DNA of 63,866 nt, filler included. It is 8 parts of 8 records of this genome, joined end to end, with 100 filler letters (N's around TTAATTAATTAA, not from the genome) between each part and the next. Parts side by side here need not be neighbours in the genome. Positions count along the whole stretch, not along the records: positions 38,488 to 44,319 come from SRR2962707_4836; 7 more parts are not named here. The stretch is one strand, 5' to 3'. Every line of letters starts with the position of its first letter. Within the stretch, counting starts at the first letter, position 1. Made by a program: the position numbers and the translations under genes. Positions 12,917 to 58,522 of this stretch are shown piece after piece. Below the pieces are notes generated by a model. That model saw nothing but the letters and a program-made list of their open reading frames with translations. It did no database searches and had not been told where the DNA came from.

Positions 12917-13079
12917 ACTTAAACGACCCACAAATCCCGGAAGCATTATGCCTTCCGGTCTCTGGCGCGGCCAGAGATCGCCCCCCACCAGCGTGTTACG
13001 CCCGTGGGGGCATTTGTGTATTTAACGCGGGCTTCCTAAATTAGGATTCTCCGCAACCGACCGAAGGGGGCCATGGCCC

Positions 13080-13739: not shown

Positions 13740-13839
13740 NNNNNNNNNNNNNNNNNNNNNNNNNNNNNNNNNNNNNNNNNNNNTTAATTAATTAANNNNN
13801 NNNNNNNNNNNNNNNNNNNNNNNNNNNNNNNNNNNNNNN
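13740..13839. other. Artificial contig linker
   Basis: N-run + TTAATTAATTAA (stops in six frames) + N-run, 100 nt; identical linker recurs 7 times. Confidence 0.99.
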
Positions 13840-18800: not shown

Positions 18801-21636
18801 TCGATTTCGTGATTTGGAACATCTTGCTCCAGAAGCTCGCGAACAGTCCCATCTTCGAGTCGAGACTGCACTTCTGGCACCACAGATCTAAGAGACTCTT
18901 CATTCAAAGGAACCTCAATAGTCTCTTCGAGCATCGAGCGCACGTTGGCCTTCAGCCGCAGAAGCACAACGCAAATTCATAAAGTTGCGACAGGAGAAGA
19001 CCACCACGGTGTGCACGAGCACGACCGACGAAAAGAACATTCAGCAACCAAACTGCAAGCTCGCACCAGCCCCATGCCGTATGCCGACAGAACTCCACTG
19101 AAAGGGTGCAGCATGATTGACTCCATGCCAAGAGCATCTGCGACTTGGCACGCGTGCTGGCCTCCAGCACCACCGAAGCAGCAAAGCGTGTAACTAGCAG
19201 TCACATTGACCCGCATTCCACAAATCAAATCAAACTGCACTTCGTGCCGAAAGTAAAAGCCAAACGCAAACAAACGCCGGAAGCACAAAAGCGATTCACT
19301 AACCCAGTGATGTCATGTCCGCGCTTGACGCTGATGTCCTTGATGGCTGTTGCCATGTTATCAACAGCGATGCGAAGATATCCAGCCTGCGTACACCCAA
19401 TTGCGTGTTCATACCGTGATGTATCTTGAAGCAGACACGGCACGATCAGAAAATCGTCAAGTACGCGAGACCACTTTTCGGCACTGCACCTACCGCAGTC
19501 TGCTCGGGGGTGAGAGGTTGCACCAATGGATTCGCAGCGTTGATTTCCTCCGTCAATGTTGCAAACTTGTCTTTCACGACGTCAACATCGAGCGTTTCGT
19601 CTGCCTTGTGGCCAAAGATGTTGCCGAAGAACTCTGGGCGGAGCCGGCCCAGGAGAACGTTGCAGTCAGTAACGGCCAAAGGGCCACCTCGTCGGTATGA
19701 GGCCTGACCCAGCAAACAGTGTTCACAATGCGATATCAGATCACGGCGAACCAGCAACATATCTATTGGAACTCGAAAGGAAGGGCAGCCCTTGTGCAAC
19801 CACCGCCACAAGAGCCAAGGTCACGACACCCAAATCGAACGAACCGGTCCGGGGCTGGCACCAGCAGATGCAGGACCAACTCGCATGCGGGCACCGTCGA
19901 AGGTGAGAATGGAGCCGCCACCAGCCTGAAAACAAGGAAATCACCGTTTGAATCATTGACAGCAATCTCGCCTTGCCGGTCGCCAGGTGAGTATTTCGCA
20001 AACCAACAACAGCGACACGAACCGCCACAGTGTGAATTCGCATCATTGGAGCGCGCATGCGCACTCCGGCAACCTCTGTGTTGAAGGTTCGTTCGAATTC
20101 ACCTGCAAGTAAAGGTTTCAAGAAGTACGTGAATAAAACTAGACCCGAAAGCAGTATTACCATGTGCAGATGCAGAACGAAAGCGGAGGCAACCACACCA
20201 TCGTAGTGAGCGACATCTGTCGACGTGCCACCCATATCAAAACCAATGATGCGGGAAAAGTTTTCGGCCTCGCAGGTGACAGCAGCACCTACAATGCCTC
20301 CTGCTGGACCACTGAGAATACTGTCCTTGCCCTGGAATAGATGCGCCGCCTGAAAAGCATGCCCCAATCGCCAGAACAATAAGCATCGGCACGACATTCG
20401 AGGGGCTAAACATCAACGGTCGGGTTGATTTCGAAAAGCAAGCCAACAACCATTGTACCTTCAATCCTCCATTTGATTGCATGAACATCAATTGGGTTCC
20501 GTCGAGCTCGGAAGCAACCTGTCGCAAGCCAAATTACGCTCAGTCAGAGTGCGTTCACAGTACAGAGTACCCCTGATTTTCCATCTGTGCATGTCATGCA
20601 GCGTGTCCGGATTACGCACCTGGTCGACATATCGGCGTAAAATCGGAGTCAGGTACGCGTCCACAGTGGTCGTGTCACCCCGGCTGACCAGCTTCATCAA
20701 AGGGCTAGTTTCATGTGACACGGAGATTTGCGTGAAACCGATTTCCCTTGCAATGTCAGCGATTGCCTTTTCGTGCTCGGTGTACCGATAGCTGCACCCG
20801 GGTATATATACATCCGGGTTTGGGCACGGACATACAAACACCACCGATCAAAACACGAAATCGATCCCAGCCATGCAAATCAAGCATTGGTGCGGGGAGT
20901 GAGCGAGATACCAATCGCCATTGCCAGCACGCACGGCTTACCCATGCATCATCACCACCGCCACGCCTCGAATGCCGGAATCGTAGACTTCTTGCAGACG
21001 CGCCCGCGTAACATTTGGGTCAATGGGAGCGAGTTCCTCTCCTGCTGCCGAGAATCGCCCGGGTACTTCCACGGCACTCTCATACAGGAGCTCGGGCAAC
21101 TTTATGTCGAGTGCGAAGATTTCCGGGCGGTTTTGATACCCGATCCGCAGCGCGTCGCGGAACCCCTCGTTGGTGACCAGCGCGACTCGGTCACCCTCGC
21201 GCTCGAGAAGCGCGTTCGTGGCCACAGTGGTGCCCATCTTCACCGTGCGGATCCGCTCAGCGGGGATCGGGTCCTGCGGGCGCAGTCCCAAGTGATGGCG
21301 AATGCCCTGCAGAGCCGAGTCTTTGTAGACACCCGGGTTCTCCGACAGAATCTTCGAAGCTTCGAGCGTACCGTCCGGCTTCTTCGCCACAATGTCAGTG
21401 AACGTCCCACCGCGGTCGATCCAGAACTCCCACAGGCTGCCCTCAGCAGCTTCACCGGTGGTGGTGGTGGTGGAGGAGGAGAAGGAGGAGGAGGACGACG
21501 ACGACGAGAGCACAGGAGCGATTGAACGAGGGCAGCGATTCAGAAACCCAGCGACGCCAGCTCGCTGACGCTGACGATGCAAGAAAGACGCATTCGAAGA
21601 CCGGCGCAAGGCTGCCCTCCACAGTTGCGCTGACAT
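15801..21636 (-). CDS. ATP-dependent 5-oxoprolinase (fused hydantoinase A/B type), about 19 exons
   Basis: [97 protein letters not shown], joined by 18 GT-AG introns. Confidence 0.92.
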
Positions 21637-21805
21637 CCTCCCCGACGCGACACGACACGACACGACAGGAACGAAAGAAAGGGGACACAACACACGACGA
21701 GACAAGAGCCCAGCTACTACTCACGGCACGACGACACGCAGCAGCGAGCGGAAGAAGCCCCCTCGGTCGACAGGAAAACAGTAAGGAGAAGGGGAGGAAG
21801 CGGGA

Positions 21806-22040: not shown

Positions 22041-22140
22041 NNNNNNNNNNNNNNNNNNNNNNNNNNNNNNNNNNNNNNNNNNNNTTAATTAATTAANNNN
22101 NNNNNNNNNNNNNNNNNNNNNNNNNNNNNNNNNNNNNNNN
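22041..22140. other. Artificial contig linker
   Basis: N-run + TTAATTAATTAA + N-run. Confidence 0.99.
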
Positions 22141-29853: not shown

Positions 29854-29953
29854 NNNNNNNNNNNNNNNNNNNNNNNNNNNNNNNNNNNNNNNNNNNNTTA
29901 ATTAATTAANNNNNNNNNNNNNNNNNNNNNNNNNNNNNNNNNNNNNNNNNNNN
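29854..29953. other. Artificial contig linker
   Basis: N-run + TTAATTAATTAA + N-run. Confidence 0.99.
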
Positions 29954-38387: not shown

Positions 38388-38487
38388 NNNNNNNNNNNNN
38401 NNNNNNNNNNNNNNNNNNNNNNNNNNNNNNNTTAATTAATTAANNNNNNNNNNNNNNNNNNNNNNNNNNNNNNNNNNNNNNNNNNNN
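38388..38487. other. Artificial contig linker
   Basis: N-run + TTAATTAATTAA + N-run. Confidence 0.99.
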
Positions 38488-38513
38488 TTCTTCTTCTTCT
38501 TCTTCTTCTTCTT
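38488..38513. repeat. (TTC)n microsatellite upstream of the nitrile hydratase gene
   Basis: Directly visible. Confidence 0.95.
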
Positions 38514-38643
38514 TGTGGCGTGAGCGTCCGTGAGTGCTGCAGAGTGCTTGCCTTTGTTTTTGCTTTCATTCCCCCCCCTGCTGTCGAAGGAACCCCGCAT
38601 CTATCATCGCTTTGGATAAAGCGTAAACGCCAGGTGTCTTCGG

Positions 38644-40571
38644 ATGTTGGGTCGCTTCGCTTCGAGACTTGTGGTCAGTGTTGCCAAGGCCAATCTCACT
38701 CAGCGGCGGGCTCTGCTCAATCCTCTGCAAAGCTTGACCGCGCGCTCCCTGTCTGCACTCGACACCTGTGCAGGCGACAGAGGAGGAGGAGGAGGAGGTC
38801 GGCAGACGGACAGCTCGGTGCAAGTTGCTTCCGTGTTGGCTCACGGTCTCGGAGGCGTCCATGACGTGGGTGGCGTGGAGGAATTGTTCCTGCCTCTCGA
38901 CCTGACAGAACGCGAGTATGCGCTGTGGGAGCGAAAGTCGCACGCCTTGCTGGTGCTCCTCGTCTCGCGAAAGCTCATGACAACGGATGAGTTGCGTCGC
39001 GGCGTGGAAGCTCTCCCTGCAGCGACGTACGCGAGCTGGTCGTACTACGCGAAATGGGGCGCCTCCATGGCTTCGATATTGTTAGAACGTGGTCTCATCT
39101 CGCCCGAGGCTCTTGATGCAAATCTAGGTGAAAGGTCTGGCCCCGTTGCGTCCGCGGACGCCTCGAAGCTTCGAGGTGGAGGAGCAGAGGGTGGCCCGTG
39201 TTTCCGCAGGGGCGATGTGGTTCGAGTGAGGTGCGAAGACAACGCGTCTCGGTGGCGCAAGCCACACTTGCGGACGCCAGGGTACATCTTTGACCGCGTA
39301 GGGGTTGTTGAACGTTTTTGTGGCGAATTCGGCGACCCACAGTTTCTCGCGTTTCGTGGTGATGGGGGGAAGATGCCTTTGTATCGAGTTCGATTCCTTC
39401 AAGATGAAGTTTGGAGAGGGACTGGGCTAGACGATACGGATGGTGGTGTTGACGATGGAAGCCTGCGTGATACTGTTGACGTGGAAGTGTACGAAAGCTG
39501 GCTCAACGGACCACTGCCGGCAAGTGAGCTAGGGCAAGGCAATGCCTTAGATATTCAGCGCTTGCTGGGAATATCTCCAATTGAACCACCCTCCGAAATT
39601 CAACATGATGATCATCATGAGCATGAACACAGCCATGATCACAGTGACAGAGCGGATCATGGTCACAGTCATGGACATGGTCACAGCCACGGGCATGGAG
39701 ACCACGATCATTCGCACTTGCCACGTCCGATTGTGGAGCAAAATGCAGTGGTGAAGGAAGGTCCTGAAGACCCTGGGCAGCGAGTCGTCGAGGCGCTTGC
39801 AAAAACATTGCTGGAAGCGGGGACTTTCTCTGCAGCAGATCTCCACGAGGTCATCAACAGTGTTGACGAGCTTGGAAGTACCGCTGCAGGTCCACGTATC
39901 GTTGCAAAGGCCTGGGTTGATCCAGATTTTCGTGAATTGCTGCTCTCGGATGCACCGGTACGATTTGGAGTTCACAAACAAGCCTCTGGACCAAAGTCCC
40001 ACCTGCCTCCCCATTGTCCAGCAGCCAATGTGTCAACGATGTTGTTGTGACGAATGCGCTGAAACAGTCGGTCTCTGTGTCTGTGATGCTTAGGCTGCCT
40101 GTGCTCAATTGGGGGTTTCCTCGTCCAACACAACCACATCAACCAAGCTGACAGTCGTCGAAAACACGTCGTCCGTCCATAACGTGGTGGTTTGCACACT
40201 GTGCTCGTGCTACCCGCTCAGCATTCTTGGATTATCACCACCTTGGCAAGTGCATTGGCAGCACCTGTGAAAAGCGCAGCTTAAAGCCACGCAATATTGG
40301 TGCTGAGCCCGAATTGCCATTGTTGTCTAGGTACAAAGACCGCCGATACCGAGCACGCATTGTGCGCGAGCCGCGGCGTGTGCTCGAGGAGGAATTTGGC
40401 ACACGCATTGGACCAAGCGTTGCTGTTCGTGTGCACGACTCGACCGCGGACCTGCGGTACTTTGTGCTTCCTGCGCGGCCGAAGAACACCGATGGATGGA
40501 CGGAAGAACAGCTTCAGGCACTTGTCACCCGCGATTCGTTGATCGGTGTGTCACTTGCAAAAGAACCTTGA
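38644..40571 (+). CDS. Fused beta-alpha cobalt-type nitrile hydratase with His-rich linker, 3 exons
   Basis: Beta: [37 protein letters not shown]. Linker with 17 His. Alpha: [28 protein letters not shown] (40193-40213), [36 protein letters not shown]. Introns 39958-40093 (GT-AG) and 40246-40330 (GC-AG). Confidence 0.95.
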
Positions 40572-40723
40572 CACCAATGAACAGACGGTGAAGATAGCCA
40601 TCGAATGTAATCGTACGTGGTTCGGACGGACATTTTATAATTCTTACAGGGGCAGTTCGACCTGACAAAATGGTTGAAAAGAAAATTGAACGAGGCCATG
40701 CCGTAAGGATCGTTTTGCACAGT

Positions 40724-43700
40724 TCAAAGTTTTGGGAGGCTGCTCTTCCCTGGTGGCGGTGGTGGCGGCTTTTTCCTTCGCCCACGACGCTTTGCCGAAG
40801 GGGAGCCTGGGGAACCAGCGATAGGCTGGAGCGAGCCATCCCCGACCGAACCATTCTTGCGATGGCCAGGTTTCGTGCCTCCGATGGCACTTGCGGAACT
40901 TCGTTCTAATTCTAAGCTCTTGCTGTGCCGCACCGTTGGAGGCGAGGCGTCATTGTCTTCTGCCACGATGCGGGGTTTCGCTCGAGCGCCACCGCCAGGA
41001 TGCGGAGGCGGCCCCGGTGGCGGTTTAAAGCCGGGTGGTGGCGCTTTCGGACGCAGTGCTTTCAGGTTGCCAGGCAGAGAGCCGCCTGCAGCAGTACCAA
41101 CGGCGCTTCCGGTGGCACCGGCAGTTGCAGTGACATCGTCTGACCGTGGGCTCGTCGTTCCTGTCTTTCGACGGGCATTCTTTTGGCGACGCAGTTGCAA
41201 CTTTTTCAACAAGTTGAGCCGATGTCGGCTGCGCTCCTTGGCAAGGCCCTCGTCAAGTGCCTTCAGGTTGTCCTTGAAATTGGAGATGATCTTCTCTTTT
41301 TCCTTCATCGCTACATGCTGTTTCATCTCCAATTTGAGTCCTTCCTTTGCCGCAGCCTCTTTGGCCGCCTCTTTTTGCCGCTGTGCCGTCTGAAACTTCT
41401 CTTCGAGCTGCTGGAGGCGCTTTTTCATCTCCTCTTCCGTAGCTTTCATGGCTTGGATCTGCTCCTCTTTCTCTTTCACAGCTGCGGCTTCACGTGCTTG
41501 CATATCAAGCTCTTGTTGAGATTTTTGCTGCTCGAGCATGGACGCCTGCAGCGCGCGCTGCTGCTCGAGCATGGACGCTTGCTGTGCCGCCATTTGGGCC
41601 TTGACTTCGTCCATTGCAGACTTCGTGCCCTCCAATACTTCGTCGTACTTGGCTTCCATGTCCACGGCAGATGCACGGTGCTGCAGCTCTTTGGTGTGCA
41701 AATCTGAGGTCACATTGTTGAGGTTGTTGAGGTTGTTCCGCACCTGCGATACTTCGTTCCATGCTTGGCGGTCGCCCTCGTCGAGCTCAGTCCCACCTTC
41801 GCTATCAGCCCAATCACCGTGATTCGTGGAATTTCCGCCTCCGTTCGCAGCGAGCTTTTCTTGAATCTCGCGCTCGTGTTCCTCCCAAACGTCCTTGCTG
41901 GCCCATTCTGATTCCCCGGTGACAGTGTTGACGAAGAAGGGGTAGCCTGTTTCCTCGTCGATGCACTCCACCCACTCCGAACCGTGATGCCCGTGGCTGG
42001 CGGAGGACTTCGCTTCCTCGCTCCCGTCTCCTATTTGATCCGAAGATGCTGCTGAGTTCAACCGTCCCCTTGCGTTTTCAACATTGAGCAGCAGCAACTG
42101 AGACTCCGTATCCCGCACTTGTGCGGCGTAGTCTGCCGGTAGTGAACCGTAGTTGTCAGTCACGTTCGTGTCCGCTCCATACCCCATCAGCATGGCCACA
42201 AGTGCTGAGTTGCCGGTGGATGCAGCGTAGTGAAGCGAAGTACAGCCATCGTTGTCCACAGAGTCTGGATTGGCGTGGGCATCGAGCAGCATTTTCGTCA
42301 ACTGCTCAGCGTAACTCTTAGAGCGAACTGCGCAGAACAGCGCCGTACATCCATTGGTGCCGACAGCCTGCACATCAGCTCCCTGCGCAAGCAGGACCTC
42401 AACGACTGACTTGGCGCACTGGATGCACGCACTCATCAGGAGCGGCTCCGTTAGCAGGGGTGACGACATCACAGCGCTTGAAAGCTGCTGGGATAGTGGA
42501 GCAGCTTGGTTATGCTGTTTCCGCGACAAATAGACCTCGATCAGGACGGTGAGCCGGCGGCGAAGGAAGGAGATGAGTCTTGGCTCATTCAGATGCTCCG
42601 CGTAACGTGCACAGTAATCGTCGGCCAATGCACCCCCTTTTGTGTGATTGTACAGGGTGTAGAGTGTGCAGATGTTCATCAGCAGCACCAAGAATTGCAG
42701 ATTCATTTCCAATAGCTCAGAGGCAGTGAACGGCTCGGGTGTCTCCACGAAGAGTACATGACTGTCCTCTGATTTGAAGCCTGAAGCTGGGGAGGACGAA
42801 TCTGTGAGCTCGCCAAAATCAGGGGTCCATGGGTTTTCGATCGCCGCTATGAAACTCTGATCCATGCAGAACTGAAAGGCCTTCTGTGCAGTGTTCTGCG
42901 CTTTTTCCCACTCGCACATCGCCATGTACAGGGTGAGGCTGCTATTGAGAGCGGTCAAGTACGCGGAACGAAGATTGCTATAGGACTTGCAGATAGTGGT
43001 GTGCCCTTCCACGAGCTTGACTGCTTCCTTCCCACGGTTGTCCGCATACAGCATGTGTGCCACTACTTCGACGTGGGCAGCGCGTGCCACCCAGCGCTTG
43101 GCCACAGTCTTGACGTTGTCGAACTTCTGCTTCGACACGAAGTCGTGGACCACTTTGCGGGCTTTCTTGCATCGCTTCAACAAGGACTCGGAGGACTCTG
43201 ACGCTGGGGCCAGTCCGCAGAGAATGCAGCTGCGGGCGTCGTGGGCGTTGACTGAGTTGCAATACAAGCATTTCCATTTTTCTGCGTGCTGGTTACTGCC
43301 CTGTGCATTGGCAGCATTGGGTGGCTGAGCCATGATCGCGTCTAAAAAGCGCTCGCTGGGACGTCTCAACAGCTTGGTTGTTTTGAGCTTTCGCAGCTTG
43401 CGGCTTTTGTGCTTCTTTTTGTCGCTGCGATGTTTTCCGTGCTTCCGGCTCCGGGCGCCTCGTCCATCACCATCATCGCCTCCAGCGCCTGCTTGCTCCT
43501 GTTCTTCACCGAGCGCTTCTTCCTCCATCTCCTGGTTTCGCTCGGCCATGTACTTGCCAAACTCCTCCACGTACGCAACCAGCAGCATCAAGTTCTTTGT
43601 TTGCGCGGTGATGTACAGTTGCCTCTCCAAGTCCTCATCCGCGAGCACCTCGTTGGACAACGCCAGAAACTCGGTAAACACTGCCGCGCCCTGAGGGCTG

Positions 43701-44005
43701 TAGTGCTCCACAGTCCCGTTGATCTGGTCACGGCAGAAGTCCTTGAACTTGTTCCAGATCTCTGTTTGTCCTTCAGAGAAAGTCTGCTGCTCCGGGTCGT
43801 CAAACACCGCGCAGTTGGAGTTCACGAACATGGCGAACACGGTCTTCCACTCATCCCCCTGCATGTACGCGTTGAGGTCCTTGAGCAGAATTTCTTTTTG
43901 CTGGATCGTCCAGGTGGAGGTGTCGAAATCGTCCTCGTGGCCTTCCTCCACCCAGTCCTCGGCATTCCATGGGTCGTCCTCGTGCGAGCCCCAGTCCACC
44001 GACAT
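40724..44005 (-). CDS. Intronless multidomain protein: BART-like, RanBP2-type Zn finger, helical region, ankyrin repeats, WW, coiled coil, Pro-rich tail
   Basis: 3.28-kb open frame from ATG 44005; W..FVNSNCAVFD..IWNKF, WKCLYCNSVN..SCILCG, GCTALFCA/GCTSLHYAA, EWVECIDEETGYPFFVNTVTGESEW. Confidence 0.8.
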   Translation of the reverse strand: MSVDWGSHEDDPWNAEDWVEEGHEDDFDTSTWTIQQKEILLKDLNAYMQGDEWKTVFAMFVNSNCAVFDDPEQQTFSEGQTEIWNKFKDFCRDQINGTVEHYSPQGAAVFTEFLALSNEVLADEDLERQLYITAQTKNLMLLVAYVEEFGKYMAERNQEMEEEALGEEQEQAGAGGDDGDGRGARSRKHGKHRSDKKKHKSRKLRKLKTTKLLRRPSERFLDAIMAQPPNAANAQGSNQHAEKWKCLYCNSVNAHDARSCILCGLAPASESSESLLKRCKKARKVVHDFVSKQKFDNVKTVAKRWVARAAHVEVVAHMLYADNRGKEAVKLVEGHTTICKSYSNLRSAYLTALNSSLTLYMAMCEWEKAQNTAQKAFQFCMDQSFIAAIENPWTPDFGELTDSSSPASGFKSEDSHVLFVETPEPFTASELLEMNLQFLVLLMNICTLYTLYNHTKGGALADDYCARYAEHLNEPRLISFLRRRLTVLIEVYLSRKQHNQAAPLSQQLSSAVMSSPLLTEPLLMSACIQCAKSVVEVLLAQGADVQAVGTNGCTALFCAVRSKSYAEQLTKMLLDAHANPDSVDNDGCTSLHYAASTGNSALVAMLMGYGADTNVTDNYGSLPADYAAQVRDTESQLLLLNVENARGRLNSAASSDQIGDGSEEAKSSASHGHHGSEWVECIDEETGYPFFVNTVTGESEWASKDVWEEHEREIQEKLAANGGGNSTNHGDWADSEGGTELDEGDRQAWNEVSQVRNNLNNLNNVTSDLHTKELQHRASAVDMEAKYDEVLEGTKSAMDEVKAQMAAQQASMLEQQRALQASMLEQQKSQQELDMQAREAAAVKEKEEQIQAMKATEEEMKKRLQQLEEKFQTAQRQKEAAKEAAAKEGLKLEMKQHVAMKEKEKIISNFKDNLKALDEGLAKERSRHRLNLLKKLQLRRQKNARRKTGTTSPRSDDVTATAGATGSAVGTAAGGSLPGNLKALRPKAPPPGFKPPPGPPPHPGGGARAKPRIVAEDNDASPPTVRHSKSLELERSSASAIGGTKPGHRKNGSVGDGSLQPIAGSPGSPSAKRRGRRKKPPPPPPGKSSLPKL

Positions 44006-44274
44006 GCTTGCGGCGGCTGCTGCTGCTGTGGCTGTGGCTGCAGCTGCAGCTACACGTGCAGCAGGCAGCGCCAATGAAGGCAACAGAAGCTTTCAGCAGC
44101 CTATGTCACCATCCCCATCACAACGGAGCGTCGTCGCCGAAAGAACGCCTCTTCCCTCGGTGACACGCACTACGCAAGCAGCACAAAAAAACGGAAAGAA
44201 AGACCGAAAGAAAGTGGAGAAACAACGGACACCTTGAGCAAGGGTTTCCCAAGTTTTTTCCCCTTCGTTTTTTT

Positions 44275-44319: not shown

Positions 44320-44419
44320 NNNNNNNNNNNNNNNNNNNNNNNNNNNNNNNNNNNNNNNNNNNNTTAATTAATTAANNNNNNNNNNNNNNNNNNNNNNNNN
44401 NNNNNNNNNNNNNNNNNNN
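44320..44419. other. Artificial contig linker
   Basis: N-run + TTAATTAATTAA + N-run. Confidence 0.99.
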
Positions 44420-44613
44420 GGGGGGAGAGGTTAGGTAGTGATCTGGTAGATCGTGTTCGTTTGTTTGGTTTCGGTGTTTTTTTGGGTTCTGTTTGCGATT
44501 GAAGTTGGATGGAGTGGGCAGGGGACAGGGACGTTGGCTCGCTGGGTATTTATTTTTGTCGCAGGTCCGTCGGAGTGAAGTAAGTCAAGTATCAACTCGT
44601 CGCCGTGCACATA

Positions 44614-46468
44614 ATGGCTGGTACCCAGTGGCGCACTGTTGCCAAGCTTTCCGCGGCTACAGCCGCAGCTTCTGCGACCATCGCAACAACTTGGTGGCAG
44701 ACCCGCACTTGCTGCGAGGCTGACAAAGCTACGGGCACAGACCCAGTTGCAACACTGACGTCATCAACTGCGAAACCCTCAGTGAAAAGGGTTGCTGCCA
44801 GCAGTCAAATACCTACACAGTCAATGACTGGAAATCGTGTTGTGGTGGTTGGAGGTGGAATCATTGGCGCGGCCATCGCTGCAGAAATTGCGGGGCGAAA
44901 GTGCTCCTCCGTTGTTCAAATCGATGCCACGCACCCGGTGCGATCGTCCTGGGGCGATACCCGCGGCTTGCAGTACGGCTATGAAGGGGTCTACGCACAG
45001 ATGGTCTCACGTGCTCACCACTTATGGCTTCGAATGAACCCAGAAAAAACCACCGCAGACAGCGGAGGGCCCGGCAGCAGCAGGTTGGATGAACTGGCTG
45101 CAACCTGTCCCGTTTCGTGCTGCAGTCTAGTAAGCGTGATTGCCATGTTCTTCCATCTCCTTTTTTCTCACTGCGTTGCTCGTTTGCATTTTCAATGATG
45201 ACGTCTCTCGTTCGGGCCGTGTAGCATTTTTACAAGCGCGCAGCATCTTGCAATAGGCCGCACAGCGGACGTTGAGCGCCAAATTGAGCTTTACCATGCG
45301 GCGGGACGCAAAGCCCGCACAGAGGTCCTGTCGCGAGAAGATGTGCTATCGAAATTTCCAATGGTACATGTTCCCACCGGACAAATGGCAGTGCTGGATA
45401 CAGATTGTTTGGTATTCGATGTGCCTGCCTGCTTGGCGCATTTGCACGATGTGGCTGAAGCACATGGCGCAGTCCTTCGGCATGGCGAGACTGTTGTCAG
45501 CATTGATCGAGAGCGTCGCGAGGTACACACCGATGAAGGCAATACCTTTGCATATGACGAATTAGTGCTCGCGACTGGGCCGTGGACCAACCAATGCCTT
45601 TCTATGGCTGGCATACCCCCCCTCCCACTATTCGTATCCATGGAGCAGCTTATTTATTTTGGACTCGACGACTCAGTCAGTGTTGCACGGCATTCCAACG
45701 GCTCAATGCCAATTGTTAGCGGGTTGTGGCGAGGAAAAGATTCTGACTGTCCGTCGTTTTGCTACGTCTTTCCTGCTTTTCACGGTGGGGCTGGCGAGGC
45801 TGTAGTGAAAGTTGCCACTCACATGCAAGGCGAGTTTATGCATACTCATGACTTTCAAATTGCAGCCAACTTTTGTTCGTTGGCTGCATCATTTCCGAGT
45901 GGGGTATTTCACCGCCGAAATTCAGCCCTGTTCATGCAGCCAAAAGACGACGAGCTCGATGTGTACCAAGTACGCCGTGTGTATTGGCGAGTTGCGTGAT
46001 TGTGTGAATATGTCGTGCTTGAGAGCAACCGTGAGCAGCGTTGGCGCTTACAGACGACGACCGCCAATGTTTGTCTTTTTACGTCTGTGCTTCAATTATG
46101 CGCAGGCCCAAATTGTGGACGGCTTCGTCGCCGCGGTCCTTCCTGAGCTACGAGAACAACAACGTGCTGGGTCCACAAAGTCCCCGACAGCGAACAACGC
46201 GAAATTTGTGTGCCGGTGTTTGTACACATCAACTCCAGACCTTCACTTTATTGTGGGGCCGCACCCAGAAGATCCAGACGTGTTTGTAGCGACTGGGTTC
46301 CACGGCGAGGGTTTTAAATTCGCCCCGGTCATTGCTGAATGTATTGCCGATGCAGTGGCGGCGCGAGTCCAACGGGTTTTTTCTTCGGAAGACACTCGAA
46401 CTCAACTTTTGTCGGACCTCATGCTCCAAGTTTTTGATCCCGGCCGTTTTTCAGAATCCCAGCCCTAG
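44614..46468 (+). CDS. Monomeric sarcosine oxidase/PIPOX-like FAD oxidoreductase, 3 exons
   Basis: VVVGGGIIG, SSWGDTR, LATGPW, CLYTSTPD (flavinylation Cys motif), GFHGEGFKFAP; introns about 45084-45224 and 45970-46106. Confidence 0.85.
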
Positions 46469-51016: not shown

Positions 51017-51116
51017 NNNNNNNNNNNNNNNNNNNNNNNNNNNNNNNNNNNNNNNNNNNNTTAATTAATTAANNNNNNNNNNNNNNNNNNNNNNNNNNNN
51101 NNNNNNNNNNNNNNNN
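51017..51116. other. Artificial contig linker
   Basis: N-run + TTAATTAATTAA + N-run. Confidence 0.99.
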
Positions 51117-58422: not shown

Positions 58423-58522
58423 NNNNNNNNNNNNNNNNNNNNNNNNNNNNNNNNNNNNNNNNNNNNTTAATTAATTAANNNNNNNNNNNNNNNNNNNNNN
58501 NNNNNNNNNNNNNNNNNNNNNN
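58423..58522. other. Artificial contig linker
   Basis: N-run + TTAATTAATTAA + N-run. Confidence 0.99.

What the first reader, a model, noticed from the sequence alone, without database searches (positions are those of the whole stretch)
38644..40571. Intron-containing, single-chain beta-alpha cobalt nitrile hydratase with an apparent mitochondrial presequence
Seen: after removing two introns one polypeptide holds an NHase beta subunit, a linker and an alpha subunit with CTLCSCY. It starts with about 55 extra residues ([37 protein letters not shown]), rich in R/S/L/A and free of acidic residues for the first 39 aa. No activator or amidase gene is on the contig. Known: Thr/Tyr in this motif marks Co-type NHases, and fused beta-alpha NHases occur in Monosiga and other protists. 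Inference: this copy is imported into mitochondria, implying organellar cobalt loading, Cys oxidation and nitrile hydration, a location I do not know to be described.
Basis: partly seen in the sequence, partly recalled or inferred. Interest (0 to 1): 0.82.

Follow-up and report, generated by a model that had tools for sequence, protein, structure and literature searches.

The report
Fused nitrile hydratase with mitochondrial-type leader
A real, spliced gene of an unidentified protist encodes a single-chain cobalt-type nitrile hydratase with an N-terminal leader that resembles a mitochondrial import signal, and many related enzymes in other protists carry similar leaders.

Summary
Window 38644-40571 (+) is a three-exon gene whose 568-aa product runs N-terminal extension, NHase beta, His-rich linker, NHase alpha with VCTLCSCY. 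One contig of a second public run of the same organism joins across both introns and stays colinear at least 121 nt upstream of the ATG. There is no upstream ATG, and two in-frame stops precede it.

Corrections:
- The window is 8 contigs joined by N-linkers, and the gene's contig is only 5.8 kb. The missing activator or amidase gene is therefore uninformative.
- Intron 2 has a GC donor.
- The extension is about 70 aa, of which about 36-39 look like a presequence.

Fused eukaryotic NHases are already known. Mitochondrial targeting is plausible but not shown. Residues 1-39 have 0 acidic and 6 basic residues, which is true of 1 of 530 windows, and no signal-peptide core. However, helix amphipathicity does not exceed shuffles, and no trained predictor was available.

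The strongest support is comparative. 33 of 120 homologues, and 17 of 67 further representatives, carry non-conserved basic leaders. In 21 cases the leader precedes a conserved DDGAGQW-type motif. I found no paper on NHase location.

Verdict: new variant of a known kind, moderate interest.

The parts
38488..38643 (+). Upstream region and 5' UTR. It begins with (TTC)n at the contig start, holds no ATG, and has in-frame stops TGA (38515) and TAA (38617).
   Evidence: The spliced X2 contig is colinear with the genome from 38523 and has 36 more letters beyond that point.
38644..38751 (+). Residues 1-36, the presequence-like leader. Residues 1-39 have 6 R/K and 0 D/E. An R-3-type motif RSL|S would place cleavage after residue 36.
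   Evidence: The amphipathicity control was not significant.
38752..38850 (+). Residues 37-69, the N-terminal tail of the presumed mature protein. It holds a degenerate copy (ALDTCAGD) of the homologues' DDGAGQW-type motif and a Gly run encoded by a GGA repeat.
   Evidence: Alignment. The repeat stretch 38772-38808 was skipped by the read tool, and a relative's contig shows 9 gaps over 38747-38906.
38851..39507 (+). NHase beta-subunit domain (about residues 70-288), with invariant R118 and R210.
   Evidence: Pfam. PDB beta chains match at E 1e-13. Invariant columns are listed.
39508..39759 (+). Inter-domain linker (residues 289-372). The His-rich stretch is residues 321-358 (39604-39717). The linker has 17 His in 83 aa.
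   Evidence: An 18-nt tandem unit lies at 39653-39698.
39760..39957 (+). Start of the NHase alpha domain, at the end of exon 1. The Pfam match is residues 380-437.
   Evidence: alpha profile positions 5-62.
39958..40093 (+). Intron 1, 136 nt, GT..AG.
   Evidence: Skipped in the X2 contig and kept in the X1 DNA contig.
40094..40245 (+). Exon 2, the middle of the alpha domain, with the metal-binding VCTLCSCY (Cys472-Tyr478 = 40193-40213).
   Evidence: alpha profile positions 64-109.
40246..40330 (+). Intron 2, 85 nt, GC..AG (non-canonical donor).
   Evidence: The X2 joint is at 40244/40330 with 2 ambiguous letters, which allows the GC..AG reading. It is the only reading that keeps the alpha profile in frame.
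40331..40571 (+). Exon 3, the C-terminal part of the alpha domain, with stop TGA at 40569-40571.
   Evidence: alpha profile positions 112-183, E 3.2e-31. PDB Co-type alpha chains match at E 2e-25.

Best explanation
This is an expressed nuclear gene of an unidentified intron-rich eukaryote. The assembly also contains contigs from bacteria. The gene encodes a single-chain beta-linker-alpha nitrile hydratase of the cobalt type, belonging to the known eukaryotic fused class.

Shown: the three-exon structure, the spliced form, the domain order, the intact metal-binding motif, and the invariant beta arginines.

Inferred:
- Translation starts at the first AUG (38644).
- The first 36-39 or so residues are a cleavable mitochondrial presequence that takes the unfolded precursor through TOM/TIM23.
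- MPP cuts near RSL|S.
- The single chain folds in the matrix, binds cobalt and oxidises two Cys ligands without a separate activator, then hydrates a nitrile to its amide.

The same arrangement appears to hold for a sizeable subset of eukaryotic NHases. Other members have no leader and are presumably cytosolic.
For: - Gene model and domains.
- Splicing: one contig of run X2 (same organism label, different study) joins across both introns. The DNA run keeps them.
- Start codon: there is no ATG in the 156 nt upstream, and in-frame TGA and TAA lie inside the stretch colinear with the spliced contig. The next in-frame Met is residue 110, inside the beta domain.
- Leader composition: residues 1-39 have 0 D/E and 6 R/K. 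This is the only one of 530 39-aa windows of the protein without an acidic residue. With 15.1% D+E in the mature part, P is about 0.0017. In the mature parts of the homologues, 314 of 47,659 windows reach the same criterion.
- No signal-peptide-like core: the best 12-aa Kyte-Doolittle mean in residues 1-35 is 1.22.
- An R-3-type motif lies at residues 34-37.
- Comparative, first set: of 120 homologues, 33 start with a leader of at least 15 aa whose first 20 residues have net charge of +2 or more and at most 1 acidic residue. 63 have fewer than 15 residues before the beta start; this group includes 14 rows flagged as N-terminally truncated. 24 have other extensions.
- Comparative, full-length rows: among 75 full-length rows the counts are 27, 31 and 17.
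- Comparative, independent set: among 50%-identity representatives, 67 of 127 new proteins have a recognisable beta start. Of these, 17 are leader-bearing, 37 have none and 13 are other.
- HMMER matches to the query almost all begin at query residues 60-73, so the leaders are not conserved in sequence.
- 25 of 120 homologues have a [DE]DG[ACS]GQ motif just before the beta domain. In 21 of these 25 it is preceded by 22-88 residues with 4-14 basic and 0-2 acidic residues. The query's ALDTCAGD aligns to this motif.
- The leader label is clustered on a tree built without the leader columns (0 of 500 shuffles as low).
- Leader-bearing homologues include a haptophyte (Prymnesium parvum, P0035) and a dinoflagellate (Polykrikos kofoidii, P0002). 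From recall, plastid import in these lineages needs a signal peptide, which these leaders lack.
- A 2020 review states that activators of eukaryotic NHases are undiscovered and that the His-rich linker is not needed for metal insertion (PMC7193024, passages).
Against: - Helix amphipathicity of residues 2-25 is not above shuffles of the same residues: max muH over 11 aa p = 0.34, over 18 aa p = 0.24. Clustering of basic residues on one face is marginal, p = 0.046. 12.7% of mature 40-aa windows have an equal or higher moment.
- No trained predictor and no import data are available.
- The host lineage could not be determined, so a primary-plastid transit peptide is not excluded.
- X2 is only guessed to be RNA, and contigs cannot show where a transcript starts.
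- The query's tree position is unresolved. Its loosely grouped neighbours include rows without a leader, P0009 and P0012.
- Many family members clearly work without any leader.
- A route for non-corrin cobalt into the matrix is not known to me. Yeast Mrs2p, the matrix Mg2+ channel, did not conduct Co2+ (PMC2099211, abstract and passages).
Confidence: 0.55

Rival explanations
1. The enzyme is cytosolic. The N-terminal 70 residues are a disordered, fast-evolving tail, perhaps regulatory or an assembly arm extension, whose composition only mimics a presequence.
For: - Amphipathicity is no better than shuffles.
- The tail holds low-complexity sequence: a Gly run from a GGA repeat that varies in length in a relative.
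- 31 of 75 full-length homologues have no extension, so the fold needs none.
- 24 of 120 homologues have extensions that are not presequence-like.
Against: - The acid-free, basic stretch sits exactly at the N-terminus and is unique within the protein (1 of 530 windows).
- The same compositional type recurs in many divergent homologues with no sequence conservation, and it ends at a conserved motif. That pattern is expected of cleaved targeting peptides rather than functional tails.
Confidence: 0.25
2. The leader is a plastid transit peptide or a dual-targeting peptide, in a host that has a primary plastid or an unusual import route.
For: - Ser/Thr make up 7 of the first 37 residues, and the composition overlaps that of algal transit peptides.
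- The host lineage is unknown.
- The Polarella homologue P0001 starts with a hydrophobic run that resembles a signal peptide (12-aa KD mean 2.17). Non-mitochondrial routing may therefore exist in the family.
Against: - The query has no signal-peptide core, so it does not fit complex-plastid import.
- Arg at positions 4 and 8 and a net charge of +6 fit mitochondrial leaders better (recalled rule).
- All named green-algal homologues lack an extension and lie in a different part of the tree.
Confidence: 0.12
3. The 5' end is misread. Either translation starts elsewhere (a non-AUG codon or a missing upstream exon), or the leader is untranslated.
For: - The gene lies only 156 nt from the contig start.
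- The context of the ATG is not a strong Kozak match.
- Contigs cannot show transcript starts.
Against: - The spliced contig is colinear for at least 121 nt upstream with no joint there.
- Two in-frame stops and no ATG lie upstream.
- The next in-frame Met (residue 110) would delete the conserved HDVGG start of the beta domain.
Confidence: 0.04

Closest known systems
Eukaryotic beta-alpha fused nitrile hydratase (Monosiga brevicollis type; Foerstner 2008 PMC2603476, Marron 2012 PMC3323583; passages read)
   Same: One ORF with beta before alpha, a CTLCSC site, spliceosomal introns, a His-rich inter-domain stretch, and no linked activator gene.
   Different: - It carries an N-terminal extension of about 70 aa with a presequence-like first half. 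Neither paper contains the words targeting, signal peptide or localis/localiz.
- The intron positions differ. In Monosiga the intron lies in the active-site coding sequence. Here the introns lie 34 codons before and 8 codons after the Cys472-Tyr478 motif.
- The best identity to any database protein is only 46-47%.
Bacterial Co-type nitrile hydratase, e.g. PDB 1IRE/4OB1 family alpha chains and 3QXE/1V29 beta chains
   Same: The alpha C-terminal exon matches Co-type alpha chains at E 2e-25. The beta part matches NHase beta chains at E 1e-13 to 1e-6. The VCTLCSCY motif and both conserved beta arginines are present.
   Different: - The bacterial enzymes have two separate subunits encoded in an operon with an activator gene.
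- They have no leader, no linker and no introns.
- The scores here fall below NCBIfam's bacterial equivalog cut-offs.
Thiocyanate hydrolase (gamma subunit, PDB 2DD4)
   Same: A homologous Co-type metal-binding subunit. It appears as a weaker hit for each exon.
   Different: The NHase alpha model scores higher than the thiocyanate hydrolase model for every exon: 38.2 vs 29.5, 54 vs 43.5 and 107.4 vs 86.4 bits. The beta part is one continuous domain, not split in two.
Plant mitochondrial cyanide detoxification (beta-cyanoalanine synthase). Only the title of Hatzfeld 2000 was seen, in a reference list. NIT4 chemistry is recalled.
   Same: It would place nitrile chemistry in mitochondria. A matrix NHase could hydrate beta-cyanoalanine to asparagine.
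   Different: The enzyme family is different: NIT4 is a nitrilase-superfamily protein. No link to NHase has been shown, and the substrate of the present enzyme is unknown.

Membership tests
Nitrile hydratase (alpha + beta) | An alpha-subunit domain covering the whole profile | tested here: met
   Pfam NHase_alpha positions 5-62, 64-109 and 112-183 of 184 across the three exons. Each match is above the 27.2-bit gathering score.
Nitrile hydratase (alpha + beta) | The N- and C-terminal domains of the beta subunit | tested here: met
   NHase_beta_N scores 64.6 bits (cut-off 21.5) and NHase_beta_C 43.4 bits (cut-off 27.7). PDB beta chains match at E 1.1e-13.
Nitrile hydratase (alpha + beta) | The metal-binding claw C-(S/T)-L-C-S-C | tested here: met
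   CTLCSC is at residues 472-477. 90 of 120 homologues have CTLCSCY at the aligned site. The other 30 are fragments or misaligned rows.
Nitrile hydratase (alpha + beta) | Two conserved beta arginines that contact the oxidised cysteines (their role is recalled) | tested here: met
   R118 and R210 are invariant in the 58-row alignment. They align to the DE(Y/L)R and H(T/L)R(F/T)P positions of PDB 4FM4 chain B.
Nitrile hydratase (alpha + beta) | Score above NCBIfam equivalog cut-offs (TIGR01323, TIGR03888) | tested here: inconclusive
   - Beta scores 87.9 bits against a cut-off of 152.2.
- Alpha scores 38.2 + 54 + 107.4 bits over the three separately scanned exons, against a cut-off of 249.85.
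- A full-length dinoflagellate homologue scores 237.8, also below the cut-off.
- The models are built for bacterial separate subunits.
Co-type NHase | Thr and Tyr in V-C-T-L-C-S-C-Y, where Fe-type enzymes have Ser and Thr (recalled rule) | tested here: met
   VCTLCSCY is present. The best PDB alpha hits are labelled cobalt-containing.
Co-type NHase | Bound low-spin Co(III) and nitrile-hydrating activity | not testable with these tools
   This needs expression, metal analysis and an activity assay.
Eukaryotic fused NHase | Beta and alpha in one reading frame, beta first, in an intron-bearing nuclear gene that is expressed in spliced form | tested here: met
   One X2 contig joins across both introns while the DNA run keeps them. 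All named close homologues are eukaryotic.
Mitochondrial matrix presequence | N-terminal, rich in Arg/Ser/Ala/Leu, lacking acidic residues | tested here: met
   Residues 1-39 have 0 D/E, 6 R/K, 7 S/T, 6 A and 9 L. This holds for 1 of 530 windows.
Mitochondrial matrix presequence | A positively charged amphipathic helix | tested here: inconclusive
   R4, R8, K15 and R22 lie at 300-340 degrees on a helical wheel. However, the hydrophobic moment is not above shuffles (p 0.34 and 0.24), and basic-face clustering gives p 0.046.
Mitochondrial matrix presequence | An MPP cleavage motif (R-2 or R-3) | tested here: met
   RSL|S lies at residues 34-37. The motif is short and of low specificity.
Mitochondrial matrix presequence | A positive call by a trained predictor, or demonstrated import and cleavage | not testable with these tools
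No proteomic data were found (0 papers).
Signal peptide / bipartite complex-plastid leader | A hydrophobic core of about 8 or more residues near the N-terminus | tested here: not met
   The longest hydrophobic run is LVVSVA, flanked by R8 and K15. The best 12-aa KD mean is 1.22, against 2.17 for the Polarella homologue.

The most novel reading that the evidence does not exclude
A large, phylogenetically scattered subset of eukaryotic nitrile hydratases, including this one, works in the mitochondrial matrix. Candidates are those with basic leaders, often followed by a conserved DDGAGQW-type N-terminal motif. The enzyme would be a self-maturing, single-chain, non-corrin cobalt enzyme. That implies an unknown pathway supplying cobalt to the matrix and a mitochondrial nitrile metabolism in protists, for example hydration of cyanide-derived beta-cyanoalanine to asparagine.
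Probability: 0.4. Interest if true: 0.7.

Novelty: new variant of a known kind. Interest (0 to 1): 0.5.

Why it matters
The physiological role of eukaryotic nitrile hydratases is unknown, and knowing the compartment would narrow the possible substrates. A matrix location would require cobalt delivery and cysteine oxidation inside mitochondria. It would give a testable reason for the beta-alpha fusion: one precursor, imported unfolded, that matures without the bacterial subunit-swapping activator. It would also point to a mitochondrial fate for nitriles or cyanide-derived compounds in marine protists, which bears on their cobalt demand. On the practical side, the leader and the conserved motif behind it split the family into leader-bearing and leaderless classes that current annotation ignores.

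Tried and rejected
- Whole-genome search for an activator, an amidase or beta-cyanoalanine synthase was not possible, because no genome is held for this window.
- Structure prediction of the exon-1 product with alignment A1 was not accepted twice. No fold or secondary-structure evidence was obtained.
- Host lineage was not resolved. The neighbour gene's only close relatives (67-69% identity) are unnamed. An oxoprolinase exon gave equally good bacterial and eukaryotic hits. Rfam found nothing eukaryotic.
- RNA evidence: no RNA holder is listed. X2 is only guessed to be RNA. Depth and uncovered parts of the contig runs were not used. The small-share runs X3 and X4 only show that relatives exist.
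- Yang et al. 2018 (PMC6201762) is not held. The Monosiga enzymology (Co-type, active without an activator) is therefore recalled, or taken from the review PMC7193024.
- One search was a badly framed literature search (any 2 of 6 terms) and gave nothing on NHase.
- I first assumed that Mrs2 could carry Co2+ into mitochondria. PMC2099211 reports no Co2+ permeation, so I dropped this idea.
- I rejected a thiocyanate hydrolase identity, because its model scores lower for every exon.
- I rejected bacterial contamination as the origin of this gene, because of the introns, the spliced contig and the eukaryotic neighbour gene. Contigs 1, 4 and 8 of the window are bacterial.
- Supplementary tables of Marron 2012 (domain coordinates, table S2) could not be seen. 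They may already show N-terminal extensions.
Full report
WHAT THE WINDOW IS. The 63,866-base window is not one molecule. Seven N44-TTAATTAATTAA-N44 linkers divide it into 8 contigs. Contigs 1, 4 and 8 carry uninterrupted bacterial genes: GntR and LysR regulators, SMC, Tad/Flp pilus genes and IF-2. An ffh sRNA lies at 12967-13018. Contigs 2, 3, 5, 6 and 7 carry genes split by introns, including oxoprolinase-like, NAGLU and DAO-type oxidoreductase genes. The finding lies on contig 5, 38488-44319. This contig is only 5832 bp and ends in simple repeats on both sides.

THE GENE. The model is exon 1 38644-39957, intron 1 39958-40093 (136 nt, GT..AG), exon 2 40094-40245, intron 2 40246-40330 (85 nt, GC..AG) and exon 3 40331-40571. 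It gives a 1707-nt CDS and a 568-aa product. Pfam places NHase_beta_N at residues 71-162 and NHase_beta_C at 184-287. The three exons match consecutive parts of NHase_alpha, profile positions 5-62, 64-109 and 112-183, so the junctions rebuild an unbroken alpha domain. The GC donor is the only reading that keeps the frame. The oxoprolinase-like gene on another contig has at least 12 introns of about 80-120 nt (one gap between matched blocks is 257 nt) and mostly GT donors, so the GC donor is an exception in this organism. PDB searches hit only bacterial NHase and thiocyanate hydrolase chains: beta at E 1e-13 and Co-type alpha at E 2e-25. VCTLCSCY is present, and R118 and R210 are invariant in a 58-row alignment. 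NCBIfam's NHase models are the best hits but fall below the bacterial equivalog cut-offs, as does a full-length dinoflagellate homologue. The NHase alpha model outscores thiocyanate hydrolase for each exon.

EXPRESSION AND THE 5' END. A search of public runs found two strong holders labelled with the same organism. X1 is DNA and possibly the source of this assembly; it keeps both introns. X2 comes from another study, and its kind is only guessed to be RNA. X2 has one 5508-nt contig that matches 38523-39956, 40093-40244 and 40330-40800 without any other difference. It therefore skips exactly 136 and 85 nt. The contig has 36 more letters beyond 38523, where the tool skipped the TTC repeat, and it runs on across the convergent neighbour gene. 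There is no ATG in 38488-43, and in-frame TGA (38515) and TAA (38617) precede the ATG at 38644. The next in-frame Met is residue 110, inside the beta domain. The leader is therefore part of the only plausible ORF. Contigs cannot show where transcripts begin, so that point stays open.

THE LEADER. The beta domain starts at about residue 70. Residues 1-39 contain no Asp or Glu and 6 Arg/Lys. Of 530 39-aa windows in the protein, only the first lacks an acidic residue. With 15.1% D+E in the mature part, the chance is about 0.0017. In the mature parts of the homologues, 314 of 47,659 windows reach the same criterion. There is no signal-peptide-like hydrophobic core, and an R-3-type motif (RSL|S) lies at residues 34-37. 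Against this, the hydrophobic moment of residues 2-25 is not higher than in shuffles (p 0.34 and 0.24). Clustering of the basic residues on one helical face is only marginal (p 0.046). In addition, 12.7% of mature windows have an equal or higher moment. The case for a presequence in this single protein rests on position and composition, not on demonstrated amphipathicity.

COMPARATIVE EVIDENCE. A word-indexed search with the exon-1 product found 123 proteins, of which 120 were listed. All carry NHase domains, and the best are 46-47% identical. The named hits are eukaryotes: dinoflagellates, haptophytes, green algae, labyrinthulids, Physarum and Hyaloraphidium. I aligned them and applied one fixed rule: at least 15 residues before the beta start, Met first, and a first-20-residue net charge of +2 or more with at most 1 acidic residue. 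By this rule 33 of 120 are leader-bearing, 63 have fewer than 15 residues, and 24 have other extensions. The group of 63 includes 14 rows flagged as N-terminally truncated. Among 75 full-length rows the counts are 27, 31 and 17. A HMMER scan of 1.84 billion cluster representatives gave 370 hits at E 1e-10 or better. Almost all matches begin at query residues 60-73, so the leader is not conserved in sequence. Of 127 new representatives, 67 had a recognisable beta start: 17 leader-bearing, 37 without and 13 other. On a tree of 76 rows built without the leader columns, the leader label is clustered (13 changes against a shuffled mean of 22.9; 0 of 500 shuffles as low) but not monophyletic, since starred branches force at least 7 changes. 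The query's own position is unresolved. Twenty-five of 120 homologues have a [DE]DG[ACS]GQ motif shortly before the beta domain. In 21 of these it follows a stretch of 22-88 residues that is basic and nearly acid-free. The 4 exceptions have 0-26 residues there, one of them acidic. The query's ALDTCAGD aligns to the motif. Pfam does not cover this segment. A variable basic leader that ends at a conserved N-terminal motif is the pattern expected of a cleaved targeting peptide. Leader-bearing members include a haptophyte and a dinoflagellate, whose plastid import (from recall) needs a signal peptide that these leaders lack. For them the mitochondrion is the obvious destination.

MECHANISM. Shown: an intact, spliced Co-type NHase gene. 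Inferred: import through the presequence pathway, cleavage near residue 36, folding of the single chain in the matrix, cobalt insertion, and self-oxidation of two Cys ligands without a separate activator. The review PMC7193024 states that no activator is known for eukaryotic NHases and that the His stretch is dispensable for metal insertion. The cobalt route is a gap: yeast Mrs2p does not conduct Co2+ (PMC2099211). The substrate is unknown. Beta-cyanoalanine from mitochondrial cyanide detoxification is a speculation. I saw only the title of Hatzfeld 2000 in a reference list.

WHAT IS KNOWN. Fused beta-alpha NHases with introns, CTLCSC and His-rich linkers are described in Foerstner 2008 and Marron 2012 (passages). 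Neither text contains 'targeting', 'signal peptide' or 'localis/localiz'. Marron mentions mitochondria once, as a possible evolutionary source of the gene. The literature searches gave the following:
- 'nitrile hydratase' + eukaryot + mitochondri: 74 papers, 25 listed, none about location by title or abstract.
- + 'mitochondrial proteome': 0 papers.
- + 'mitochondrial targeting': 2 papers, unrelated.
- + TargetP: 1 paper, unrelated.
- + phytoplankton + cobalt: 12 papers, none on location.
Subscription papers and supplements were not visible, so this is absence from the held library only.

VERDICT. The gene is a new member of the known eukaryotic fused Co-type NHases. The mitochondrial reading is reasonable (about 0.55) and is better supported by the family-wide pattern than by this sequence alone. 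I rate it a new variant of a known kind, with interest 0.5.

Noticed in passing
window 1-63866 (linkers at 13740-13839, 22041-22140, 29854-29953, 38388-38487, 44320-44419, 51017-51116, 58423-58522): The window is 8 contigs joined by N44-TTAATTAATTAA-N44 spacers. Contigs 1, 4 and 8 are bacterial (regulators, SMC, Tad pilus genes, IF-2, and an ffh sRNA at 12967-13018). The other contigs are eukaryotic with introns. The assembly therefore mixes a protist with associated bacteria.
   Followed up: partly
window 40724-44083 (-): A convergent, intron-free neighbour gene encodes a protein of about 1100 aa with BART, ankyrin and WW domains. Its stop lies 152 nt from the NHase stop, and one contig of run X2 runs across both genes. 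An identical protein is on record on a 1.35-Mb contig. The only close relatives (67-69% identity) are unnamed.
   Followed up: partly
homologues P0003-P0111; window 38752-38790 for the query's copy: A conserved L-P-[VI]-D-D-G-[AC]-G-Q-W type motif sits between the leader and the beta domain in 25 of 120 homologues. It is not covered by any Pfam family. A second group has a different conserved segment (EDPTQRVPG...VHPGG) in the same place.
   Followed up: partly
linker, window 39604-39717, and homologues: His-rich linkers with at least 8 His occur in 76 of 121 sequences. These include green algae, Physarum, Hyaloraphidium and labyrinthulids. They are therefore not the opisthokont character proposed in Marron 2012.
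   Followed up: partly
window 20941-21720 (-) and 44584-45195 (+): The first exons of an oxoprolinase-like gene and of a DAO-type FAD oxidoreductase on other eukaryotic contigs also begin with long extensions rich in Arg, Ser, Ala and Thr and nearly free of acidic residues. One of them includes a poly-Ser/Thr run. These may be further organelle-targeted proteins of the same organism.
   Followed up: no
homologue P0001 (Polarella glacialis), N-terminus: Its extension starts with a hydrophobic run that resembles a signal peptide (12-aa KD mean 2.17), followed by a basic stretch. Either the start is miscalled or the protein takes a different route, such as plastid or ER, in that dinoflagellate.
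   Followed up: no
window 38772-38808: A GGA repeat encodes the Gly run of the N-terminal tail. A contig of a related organism (run X3) shows 9 gaps over 38747-38906, so the length of the tract appears to vary.
   Followed up: no
window 40246-40247: Intron 2 has a GC donor, and both acceptors are followed by G. Most of the introns inspected in the oxoprolinase-like gene use GT.
   Followed up: partly
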